64,000 nucleotides of DNA. It comes from Diadema antillarum. Lineage: Eukaryota. Location of the stretch: positions 1,550,001 through 1,614,000 of the forward strand of contig NW_027271721.1 in the NCBI RefSeq assembly GCF_040938485.1. The letters are read 5' to 3'. A model generated the notes under the pieces. That model worked only from the letters and a program-made list of their open reading frames with translations, had not been told where the DNA came from and did not search any database. Each line of letters begins with the position of its first letter. The stretch's first letter is position 1. A program made the translations under genes and the position numbers. Below, piece by piece: positions 32,729-58,446 of the stretch.

Positions 32729-32879
32729 CGCCAGTAAATAAAAGGGAGAAACCGTAGACGATTCGGATGAGGTTTGGATCTGATTTATTGCCGTGGCCGA
32801 GACAATCGACTACGGCATGCCAATTGTGTACAAACGTAGATTACTACATACACTGTATATAACACAACCAATACTGGCG
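32729..32879 (-). repeat. 3' LTR of element A
   Basis: Sense sequence CGCCAGTATTGG...AATAAA...TTTACTGGCG with an 8-bp terminal inverted repeat; identical to 37210-37360 by visual alignment. Confidence 0.95.
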
Positions 32880-32882
32880 TGA

Positions 32883-32900
32883 CTTCTTCTTTCTTCCTCT
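32883..32900 (-). promoter_or_regulatory. Polypurine tract of element A
   Basis: Sense AGAGGAAGAAAGAAGAAG, then TCA, then the 3' LTR. Confidence 0.85.
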
Positions 32901-34805
32901 GTCCTCTGTTCTCTGACAGCTTAATAATTACTTTCCATTCAACAATCAATCATATGTTTATACAACCTCAAAATTTGCCTCTGTTACAAACACTCTAAAA
33001 AATGGAAACTAATCACTAAACAAAACCACAACTGAACAATTAGCATATCACCCATCACTGTGATAACAATCACTATACTGTAGTTAATAACAAAACTCTA
33101 TCGCTGTCAACAAACAATTGATAACCTTATGCATAAACACATTGATCGTACAGACTATCAATGTCCAACAAAAATCTTTACCATTTAACCTCTACATACA
33201 TGTATATCGACACACAAATATAACTTGACTTGCTTTATGATTTTCACAAAAAAAAAACACAAAATCATCATATTCATATAAACTACACTGTATGTGCATC
33301 AAACTCCACTCACCAACATCATATTGTTCCTAGATTTCTGATAACTGAACACAAATCACATTTCACAACAATCTCACTATTGTGTACTGTATCCCAATAT
33401 CTTCTCTTGCCCCATTAATTAGTTAACTACGCTAACATGACACTAATAAAGCATAACAAAATTGAAAAAAAAACCCATACATGTATATATCATAATCAGA
33501 TACATAAACTATACACGGTCATCTGAATAAAACATGACATTCTTCACTAAGTTGAGCACGTACAATGGACATGGTACTTATAAAAACATATCTGTATATG
33601 GATTGTAACATTAAACCAGTGCAGACGTGAAAAACACTCTTTTGTTTTCATGAATCGATCCTGCTCAATGATAGTGGATAATCAATCCAGACAACCACAC
33701 TATGTAAATATGCATACCGGTAAATATGTTTAAGCTATACATACATGTATGTGTGCCAATCTTATGGGAAAAATGAACACAACTGTGCTAATACGGGGTA
33801 TGAGCATGATAACACTGCAAATCTGTAATACTGTACTGGAAACATACAAGTCTAGTTTACCATGAACAGTAATCAGGTAGCAAGGAAGATTGCCACCATT
33901 TATGAACATTAGTACAAAAAACAACAAGAAAACTTATCAGAGTTTTGAAGTGCCATGCTTACACAACAACATAGTAATAGATGTGTATACGACTGTACAT
34001 TATGTACCAAAAAAGTCGAACAGACAAATACAAAAGTGTACTGTCTTTAAAAAATTATACATACCAGTACATTCCACTCCTGTGTCCTATACATTAGGTC
34101 ATTAAACAATCTATGACCGTCAGTAAAAAAAGGACAATATAAATTTTAGGCTAACTAAATACAACATCAGCATAAGATATGTGTATGTACTTGCACAGAC
34201 TGCAAAACAATATTATCAGATAGTGTGTGATTCAAAATGAAACTCTGGAGAAATAATAAACATTAAAATAACTAGAAGGCTTGTGCATTTGCCATACAAA
34301 GTCATCCGTATGTTGACATCAACCTTGACAAAAATCGTACATGTCCAGTCTATCTACATGTCTAATTAAATACTGGTATAAATGAAACACAGTATGGTAC
34401 ATAGCTGCCATACTAGGAACAGTAAAAACAAAAATGCACCATATGCCTACCCGATAGCCAAAATGGTAATAACTACAAAAACACACATCGCATCCTTAAT
34501 CCAAAGGCCAAAATCTTTTCCTTGAAATAGATTCAGAACTCAAAAAATCACAACAGAAACTGTAAGAAAAAACAGATTCACAAAATTATCAAAACATCAA
34601 ATGATACCCAAAGAAGTTCACAAGACGTAAGATTCACTATCGCAATGACAAAAAGGTGGGTACCGGTATACAAACTACAATACAGACAGCTGATGCATGT
34701 GGAAAAATGTGAATTACGAAAACATACACATCACATTGAGCACCTACAGTATATACACACTACAAACATGGGTACAAAATACACAAAATAAACTTAAATG
34801 ACCAA

Positions 34806-58132: not shown

Positions 58133-58286
58133 TGTGGGTGTGTGGGACTGTACCGTACAAACAAACTAGTTGCTATTGAAGTCCTAAGTAAAAACTTACG
58201 TTTACGGTGGACTTGGCTGTTTTATTTCAGCAGAATTTCTTCCTGTGATGGGCAAGATTTAACTTAGGCTGTGGGTAGTATTCCAG

Positions 58287-58297
58287 CGCTGCCACCA
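58287..58297 (-). promoter_or_regulatory. Primer-binding site of element B (tRNA-Leu type)
   Basis: Sense TGGTGGCAGCG(CTGGAA) directly after the 5' LTR, compared with TGGTGGCAGCGGTGGGA expected for tRNA-Leu(AAG/UAG). Confidence 0.85.
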
Positions 58298-58446
58298 CGC
58301 AATTATGGAGAAACACAACGTTAGTTTGTTGATACTTGGAGGAGCATTTATTCAACGAACCATGGCAGTGGTACAAGTCACAGTTATACTGCTTATTATC
58401 ATAGATGGCGCTATTGCATATCAATTCAACAACACCTTAACTGGCG
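58298..58446 (-). repeat. 5' LTR of element B
   Basis: Direct repeat of 51711-51859 with one difference (CGCAATTATGG vs CGCAATTAAGG on the + strand). Confidence 0.95.

What the first reader, a model, noticed from the sequence alone, without database searches (positions are those of the whole stretch)
32729..58446. Helper/satellite-like pair within 15 kb sharing cis signals but not bulk LTR sequence
Seen: LTR lengths 151 and 149 bp, the same sense start CGCCAGT, AATAAAT at a similar position, GTTTCTCC about 32-40 nt after AATAAA in both, the same tRNA-Leu PBS, similar leader lengths (~165-175 nt from PBS to ATG) and the same orientation. The rest of the LTRs do not align. Inference: A is not a fresh deletion of B but an old lineage that conserves only the signals needed for mobilisation in trans by B or a relative. 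Both are recent (0 and 1 LTR differences).
Basis: partly seen in the sequence, partly recalled or inferred. Interest (0 to 1): 0.7.

Follow-up and report, generated by a model that had tools for sequence, protein, structure and literature searches.

The report
Troyka satellite with a dead protease
Two young jumping genes of the known Troyka type sit 14 kb apart in a sea urchin genome, and the signals they share are common to all their relatives, but the shorter, enzyme-less one keeps a catalytically dead protease under selection that likely lets it latch onto a full-length helper such as its neighbour's family.

Summary
Every listed feature is in the sequence. Both elements are Troyka LTR retrotransposons (CG..CG ends, 3-bp target duplications confirmed at empty allelic sites). 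The "shared signals" are not pair-specific: CGCCA starts, tRNA-Leu primer sites, poly(A) spacing and 154-180 nt leaders occur across up to 12 Troyka families of this genome. A's LTR is closer to other satellites (z about 8) than to B (z 2.7). A and B are two separate insertions; Troyka copies cluster mildly in any combination. It is shared by satellite families here and in Lytechinus, and is under purifying selection (inherited omega 0.20; active protease 0.14; tail 1.06). A predicted heterodimer with B's protease passed (0.70 vs control 0.28; possibly from memory). Likely mechanism: a cis-acting tether to helper Gag-Pol. This scan already noted the dead protease in four other genomes.

The parts
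37361..37363 (.). A: target-site duplication copy (TTC on +), 3 bp
   Evidence: empty allelic site with one TTC on G000:C168
37210..37360 (-). A 5' LTR, 151 bp, CGCCA..TGGCG
37198..37209 (-). A primer-binding site, 11 of 12 nt complementary to the 3' end of tRNA-Leu(AAG)
34806..37034 (-). A single ORF, 742 aa: short N-terminal part, pseudo-protease, long disordered acidic and Pro-rich tail; no capsid, RT, RNase H or integrase
36471..36863 (-). A pseudo-protease domain (aa about 58-188): Ddi1-like retropepsin fold, R-S-G in place of catalytic D-S-G, acidic insertion in the flap
   Evidence: pLDDT over 90 in most blocks of aa 61-180; Foldseek E 6.7e-8 to Ddi1 RVP
35738..36023 (-). A: 11 tandem 27-nt units, each holding a 16-nt motif (ACTGAGC-NNN-GCTCTG) conserved at nucleotide level in 5 of 8 satellite families; role unknown
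32880..34805 (-). A long AT-rich 3' untranslated region with polypurine tract (about 32883-32899)
32729..32879 (-). A 3' LTR, identical to the 5' LTR
32726..32728 (.). A: target-site duplication copy (TTC on +)
58447..58449 (.). B: target-site duplication copy (AAG on +), 3 bp
58298..58446 (-). B 5' LTR, 149 bp, CGCCA..TTGCG
58283..58297 (-). B primer-binding site, 14 of 15 nt complementary to tRNA-Leu(AAG)
53174..58132 (-). B single Gag-Pol ORF, 1652 aa: Gag with CX2CX8HX4C knuckle (aa 274), protease (DSG at aa 370), RT, RNase H, integrase; no env, no GPF/Y in the integrase
51860..53173 (-). B 3' untranslated region with polypurine tract (about 51866-51880)
51711..51859 (-). B 3' LTR, 1 difference from the 5' LTR
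51708..51710 (.). B: target-site duplication copy (AAG on +)

Best explanation
A and B are two separate, recent insertions of Troyka LTR retrotransposons, B autonomous and A a member of an old sea-urchin satellite clade whose one protein carries a catalytically dead protease under purifying selection, and this domain likely dimerises with the protease of a helper Gag-Pol (most likely family B at present) to bring A's own RNA into the helper's particle. Shown: Troyka hallmarks; empty allelic sites; superfamily-wide cis signals; loss of the catalytic Asp in every satellite; retained fold; omega about 0.2 on inherited changes in the domain and about 1 in the tail; frame kept open. Predicted: the heterodimer. 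Inferred: action in cis (selection acts on changes passed on by transposition although intact sister copies are present to complement in trans), co-translational capture of the RNA, and family B as helper. The helper then supplies capsid, RT and integrase and reads the shared tRNA-Leu primer site, polypurine tract and CG..CG ends. The 14-kb proximity needs no pair-specific mechanism.
For: Hallmarks; 3-bp TSD in 45 of 55 measurable copies (63 examined). Dead site: 7 of 7 families aligned (R, H, R, K, Q, C, R) and 43 of 43 database proteins of the class that cover the site; the Ser and Gly after it are kept in at least 90% of 41 rows. Fold. Selection across four families, allelic twin removed, transition bias corrected: domain inherited 15N/27S, omega 0.20; domain singletons 88N/38S, 0.82; tail inherited 353N/123S, 1.06; active B/B2 protease 15N/42S, 0.14 (Fisher p 1e-6 against tail, 1e-4 against singletons). 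Frame: inherited indels are multiples of 3 in 21 of 27 in the ORF and 20 of 80 in the 3' UTR. One origin not ruled out: 28 pseudo-proteases form one side of a branch, SH-aLRT 99; named members come from Diadema setosum, Lytechinus variegatus and L. pictus. Heterodimer with B's protease: score 0.70, best of 3 controls 0.28, contacts agree at least 73%, partner pLDDT at least 76; the mark was reached by 51 of 78 solved and 2 of 108 mismatched pairs (eukaryotes 39 of 65 and 2 of 126). 10 of the 20 most conserved residues fall in the 27-residue predicted interface (p 0.001). Precedent: the IAP 1Delta1 gag-pol fusion acts in cis (PMC6466679 passage).
Against: The complex may pass from memory of solved Ddi1 and retropepsin homodimers; it does not separate a heterodimer from a homodimer of A's own domain, and conservation of dimer-interface residues fits both. 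Nothing shows that the protein is made or binds RNA, and it has no zinc knuckle. A dead monomer bound to the helper protease would be expected to impair maturation, which must be reconciled with a benefit. Inherited-site counts are small (42 sites) and copies within a family are not independent. The tree is unrooted, has 144 columns for 114 rows, and its groups were set by best hit, which is partly circular. Helper identity rests on elimination, with 150 of 2119 RT candidates scored. Troyka copies do cluster more than a uniform null (3 other pairs within 30 kb against 0.30 expected, p 0.004), so a local effect is not excluded.
Confidence: 0.5

Rival explanations
1. The pseudo-protease is a regulator or poison, not a tether: it binds helper protease as an inactive partner and delays or limits Gag-Pol processing, which favours satellite RNA or limits the helper's own spread, like a defective-interfering element.
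For: The catalytic Asp is lost in all members while the dimer face is kept; retroviral proteases are obligate dimers with one triad per monomer (PMC8537868 passage).
Against: A freely diffusing inhibitor benefits all copies alike and should decay, yet inherited changes are purged (omega 0.20) while post-insertion singletons are not (0.82). Family B is still expanding, with 8 of 13 measured copies having identical LTRs.
Confidence: 0.2
2. The domain works as a homodimer or binds a host factor (for example a substrate-binding scaffold like Ddi1, or a silencing component) and anchors the long acidic tail to the particle or shields A's RNA; it never touches the helper protease.
For: Closest folds are Ddi1 domains; the flap is replaced by a conserved acidic D-x-G-Y-x-D-Y stretch in 10 of 28 long rows, a new surface that a simple heterodimer does not need; N- and C-terminal motifs are also partly conserved.
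Against: No host partner was identified; the heterodimer passed its controls.
Confidence: 0.2
3. Only translation of an open frame matters (RNA stability or ribosome-coupled packaging); the protein sequence is incidental.
For: The tail evolves neutrally in amino acids (omega 1.06) but keeps its frame.
Against: The protease-fold domain has omega 0.20, near the active enzyme's 0.14, with synonymous change comparable to the tail's, and keeps a confident fold across distant sea urchins.
Confidence: 0.05
4. A and B are a dedicated helper-satellite pair, co-mobilised or co-targeted to this locus and matched by private cis signals.
For: Both are young, hemizygous, on one haplotype and one strand; Troyka copies cluster beyond a uniform null; GTTTCTCC is exact in only 3 of 12 families, A and B among them.
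Against: Each has its own TSD and empty site. The other close pairs mix any families: B remnant + D, A2 + A5, A6 + an old RT fragment, C + A3. A's LTR resembles A3 and A8 (z about 8) more than B (2.7), and its junction matches C better than B. Other A1 and B copies lie apart.
Confidence: 0.05

Closest known systems
Troyka LTR retrotransposons (Kojima 2025, PMC12440569; = Kuafuorterviruses, Gong and Han 2024, PMC11673190)
   Same: CG..CG termini, CGCCA start, 3-bp TSD, 100-400 bp LTRs, single Gag-Pol with CX2CX8-10HX4C knuckle, order PR-RT-RH-IN, no env, no GPF/Y; TTGCG 3' end as in a sea-urchin lineage.
   Different: Nothing for B. Placement in the published RT tree could not be tested (no Troyka references on hand).
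Non-autonomous Troyka elements of sea urchins (62 of 70 in PMC12440569)
   Same: Short elements with Troyka ends and no functional Gag-Pol, abundant in a sea urchin (8 families here).
   Different: The main-text passages seen give them two sentences and do not describe their ORF, the dead protease, selection on it, or a single origin; the paper's supplements could not be read and may hold these sequences.
Mouse IAP 1Delta1 elements (review PMC6466679, citing Saito et al. 2008)
   Same: Non-autonomous LTR element whose in-frame gag-pol remnant is reported to act in cis and which outnumbers helpers among new insertions.
   Different: 1Delta1 is a recent deletion nearly identical to its helper; A is an ancient lineage with unrelated LTRs, no capsid, and a catalytically dead, remodelled protease as its only folded domain.
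Ddi1 retroviral-like protease domain (PDB 5ys4, 4rgh, 3s8i)
   Same: Best structural match of A's domain (Foldseek E 6.7e-8, TM 0.80 by target).
   Different: Ddi1 is a cellular enzyme that keeps the catalytic Asp; 15-19% identity; the likeness is of fold only.
TRIM, LARD and TR-GAG non-autonomous plant elements; Helenus and Ajax (names from search listings; definitions recalled)
   Same: Long-lived non-autonomous LTR lineages that borrow enzymes.
   Different: They are non-coding, Gag-coding or small-RNA-derived; none was seen described with a pseudo-protease.

Membership tests
Troyka (B and A) | LTR termini 5'-CG..CG-3', usually CGCCA..TGGCG | tested here: met
   A CGCCA..TGGCG, B CGCCA..TTGCG
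Troyka (B and A) | 3-bp target-site duplication | tested here: met
   empty allelic sites hold one TTC and one AAG; 45 of 55 measurable relatives
Troyka (B and A) | LTR 100-400 bp, internal part 1,553-7,691 bp | tested here: met
   151 and 149 bp LTRs; internal 4,330 and 6,438 bp
Troyka (B) | single Gag-Pol, order knuckle-PR-RT-RH-IN, no env | tested here: met
Troyka (B) | CX2CX8-10HX4C knuckle; no GPF/Y motif in the integrase | tested here: met
   knuckle at aa 274; the only GPF is at aa 645, before RT
Troyka (B) | RT groups with described Troyka elements, apart from Ty3/Gypsy | not testable with these tools
   Repbase and supplementary sequences not available
Non-autonomous Troyka (A) | no functional Gag-Pol or Pol | tested here: met
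   no Pfam match, only the protease region aligns to B
Active retropepsin (A's domain) | catalytic D-[ST]-G | tested here: not met
   R-S-G in A; no Asp in 43 of 43 class members
Active retropepsin (A's domain) | retropepsin fold | tested here: met
   predicted model matches Ddi1 RVP
Recent deletion derivative of B (A) | near-identical LTRs and internal sequence to B | tested here: not met
   contrast the 570-bp true B derivative at L143, 99% identical
IAP 1Delta1-like cis-acting helper-dependent element (A) | own protein raises own transposition in cis | tested here: inconclusive
   inferred from selection on inherited changes; no functional test

The most novel reading that the evidence does not exclude
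A clade of satellite retroelements has persisted across sea-urchin orders by turning the helper's own protease into a dead decoy: the pseudo-protease pairs with any Troyka Gag-Pol protease and tows its own RNA into the particle, so one active helper family serves six or more satellite families with unrelated LTRs. A conserved 16-nt repeat in the ORF may be a second, nucleic-acid-level signal.
Probability: 0.4. Interest if true: 0.8.

Novelty: new variant of a known kind. Interest (0 to 1): 0.58.

Why it matters
Non-autonomous LTR elements are usually thought to survive on cis sequences alone or on a retained Gag. A long-lived satellite clade that keeps an enzymatically dead protease under nearly the same constraint as the active one points to protein-level parasitism of a retroelement by another, through the obligate dimer of the protease. 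It would explain why non-autonomous Troyka are so abundant in sea urchins and gives a direct biochemical test (binding of two small domains). The pair itself matters little: its shared signals are family traits.

Tried and rejected
Autonomous element with A's LTR: none among the regions fetched; the longer A1 copies (L063/L064, L065, L066) gain their length from stretches without RT or integrase hits to B. Pair-specific cis signals: rejected. The 16-nt repeat as a signal shared with helpers: B has a look-alike in gag, but it is not kept in B2 or C and in 1 of 3 D copies, so rejected. The repeat as an RNA hairpin: one compensatory change in the 4-bp stem among 115 unique copies, so hairpin versus palindromic DNA site is undecided; no Rfam match. 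Remote homology of A's tail to RT, RNase H or integrase: none by profile comparison. First fold with 10 sequences was poor (pLDDT 47); the 41-row alignment resolved it. Word-based protein search found only 1 relative; the profile search found the class. Expression: no RNA holder listed, so co-expression is untested. Two apparent close pairs (C320, C523) were dropped as segmental duplicates with identical flanks. L062 was dropped as the allelic twin of L061 (it was included). Saito et al. 2008 was not held. Literature searches that found no description of a pseudo-protease in non-autonomous LTR elements.

Full report
OBSERVATION. Two LTR elements lie on the minus strand, A at 32729-37360 and B at 51711-58446, 14,350 bp apart. 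The primer sites match a tRNA-Leu(AAG) gene of the same genome. At DNA level A and B share only a 13-nt junction and 82 nt of the protease region at 72%.

WHAT THEY ARE. Both LTRs begin and end with CG and are flanked by 3-bp duplications. The allelic contig G000:C168 lacks both elements and holds one copy of each duplication; two coded runs of one study also join across both sites. These are the hallmarks of Troyka (Kojima 2025, PMC12440569; parts 1-3 of 5 and passages read; supplements not readable), also called Kuafuorterviruses (PMC11673190; part 1 of 3 and passages). [quoted passage not shown] The nearest database protein to A (98% identical) is labelled Diadema setosum, so the host is a sea urchin, the group that holds 62 of the 70 non-autonomous Troyka in that paper.

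ARE THE SHARED SIGNALS SPECIAL? No. Searches of the 1.75-Gb assembly and fetched copies gave four autonomous families (B, B2, C, D) and eight satellite families (A1 = the window's A, to A8). All 12 LTRs start CGCCA, 6 start CGCCAGT, 11 have the poly(A) signal 55-63 nt from the end, all have a Leu-type primer site, and 11 of 11 measured leaders are 154-180 nt. The paper reports CGCCA in 573 of 603 Troyka LTRs. A1's LTR aligns to A3 and A8 at z about 8 and to B at 2.5-2.7; its junction matches family C over 22 nt and B over 13. Only the exact octamer GTTTCTCC is narrower (A1, A2, B; 3 of 12).

IS THE PROXIMITY SPECIAL? Among 78 autonomous and 55 satellite places, 4 pairs lie within 30 kb against 0.30 expected under a uniform null; without the window's own pair 3 remain (p 0.004). 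The other pairs mix any families (B remnant + D, A2 + A5, A6 + an old RT fragment; C + A3 at 63 kb). Troyka copies therefore cluster mildly, probably through regional target preference or retention (inference; the null ignores repeat density). This is not evidence of a dedicated pair.

No autonomous element carries A's LTR. The LTR search gave 37 matches; 16 regions were fetched and 0 hit B's RT or integrase; three more places fetched later were satellites A3 and A8; one place (C745) was not fetched and scores as the twin of C1185. Of 80 RT matches, 15 have a full open frame, 14 in family B and 1 in B2 (150 of 2119 candidates scored). Identical LTRs occur in 8 of 13 measured B copies, 0 of 10 B2, C and D copies, and 11 of 32 satellite copies from five families, plus the window's A. 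Family B is thus the likeliest current helper, for many satellite families at once (inference by elimination).

A has a 742-aa ORF with no Pfam match. Residues 53-194 align to B's protease (profile probability 99.2%, 33% identity) and nothing else aligns. With a 41-row alignment AlphaFold2 gives a confident domain at about aa 60-185 and a disordered remainder; the model matches Ddi1 retroviral-like protease domains (E 6.7e-8). The catalytic Asp is R in A and R, H, K, Q or C in the other families. A profile search of 1.84 billion proteins gave the same architecture, 630-980 aa with the domain near the N-terminus. Of 183 proteins held, 43 are of this class and cover the site, and 43 of 43 lack the Asp. 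Of 20 looked up, four are named from Lytechinus variegatus and L. pictus, the others carry no name. In a tree of 114 rows (catalytic column dropped; cluster members and rows not covering the domain left out) the 28 pseudo-proteases are one side of a branch, SH-aLRT 99; the tree is unrooted and the grouping partly circular. That Diadema and Lytechinus split about 200 million years ago is recalled, not from a call.

SELECTION. Changes shared by two or more insertions have passed through transposition; singletons mostly arose after insertion. In four families, with transition bias taken from the 3' UTR (kappa 3.06), the domain has omega 0.20 for shared (15N/27S) and 0.82 for singleton changes (88N/38S), the tail 1.06 and 0.89, and the active B/B2 protease 0.14 (first pass). 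Shared indels keep the frame in 21 of 27 cases in the ORF and 20 of 80 in the 3' UTR; family A6 alone goes against this (2 of 8). So the dead domain is maintained as a protein, the tail as an open frame.

MECHANISM. Retroviral proteases are obligate dimers joined through the Asp-Thr-Gly network (PMC8537868, passages). The satellites keep the Ser-Gly after the lost Asp and the C-terminal strands. A predicted complex of A's domain with B's protease scored 0.70 against a best control of 0.28 (3 runs, contacts agree at least 73%, partner pLDDT at least 76; mark reached by 51 of 78 solved and 2 of 108 mismatched pairs), and 10 of the 20 most conserved residues lie in the 27-residue interface (p 0.001). 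Because such dimers are solved, the pass may reflect memory and cannot tell heterodimer from homodimer. Selection on inherited changes despite many intact sister copies argues for action in cis (inference). The simplest model is a tether: the nascent protein pairs with helper Gag-Pol and carries its own RNA into the particle. A review states that the IAP 1Delta1 gag-pol fusion acts in cis (PMC6466679, passages; the primary paper was not held). I give the tether 0.5, a poison or regulator 0.2, a homodimeric or host-binding scaffold 0.2.

A SECOND UNEXPLAINED FEATURE. The 27-nt repeats in A hold a 16-nt motif found 228 times in the genome against 4 for the reversed control. It occurs in 5 of 8 satellite families and in no helper family at two mismatches or fewer on the sense strand. 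Synonymous positions are fixed while the middle bases change the amino acids, so it is probably constrained as nucleic acid, though exchange between families could also homogenise it; hairpin versus palindromic site is undecided.

NOVELTY. Troyka and its non-autonomous sea-urchin members are in print. The dead protease was not found in the texts read or in eight searches (PMC12859917 passages), but unread supplements may hold the sequences. This scan noted the same dead protease in four windows of other genomes; my reading was recorded before that look-up, and those notes are not independent support. Verdict: observation confirmed, pair interpretation partly supported, new variant of a known kind, interest 0.58.

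Noticed in passing
window 35738-36023 and satellite families A2, A3, A5, A6: A 16-nt motif (ACTGAGC-NNN-GCTCTG) repeated 3 to 25 times inside the ORF, conserved at synonymous positions, 228 genome matches against 4 control; Lytechinus proteins show the matching TE-x-SS peptide repeats.
   Followed up: partly
LTRs of families B, D, A4, A5, A7 (window 58298-58446 for B): A shared U3 motif CGCCATCT, absent from A's LTR; it resembles CTCF or YY1 sites (resemblance recalled, not tested).
   Followed up: no
window 36900-37034; L091, L095, L112: The satellites' N-termini keep a P-x-[QRH]-W/R-C stretch like the first residues of helper Gag (PKQWC), suggesting the ORF is the Gag start fused in frame to the protease; many end in P-G-stop and several carry H-P-x-A-P-P near the end.
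   Followed up: partly
L143 (G000:C492:288725-289293): A 570-bp internally deleted copy of B, 99% identical: an ordinary recent deletion derivative, in contrast to A.
   Followed up: partly
L106, L107, L093 (G000:C320, C523): Family C copies 44 kb apart with identical flanks: a segmental duplication that carried the element, not new insertions.
   Followed up: yes
runs X1, X2 laid on window 32400-37700 and 51400-58800: Both sites are empty and both families are present in these samples; summed contig depth is much higher over A than over B relative to flanks, but the tool warns this is no copy number.
   Followed up: partly
window 3813-4390, 27031-27597, 31112-31688: A family of about 580-bp elements with long terminal inverted repeats (MITE-like); copies differ between the two haplotypes.
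   Followed up: no
window 11569-11934 (-): A PHD-finger-like fragment (C-x2-C ... H-x2-C) cut by a simple repeat, probably a relic of a non-LTR element (inference).
   Followed up: no
window 26468-26929 (+): An acidic open frame of about 150 aa that may be an exon of a host gene; not identified.
   Followed up: no
L069, L074: Fragments of A-type LTR and 3' UTR lie beside long frames that look like seven-transmembrane receptor genes (appearance only).
   Followed up: no
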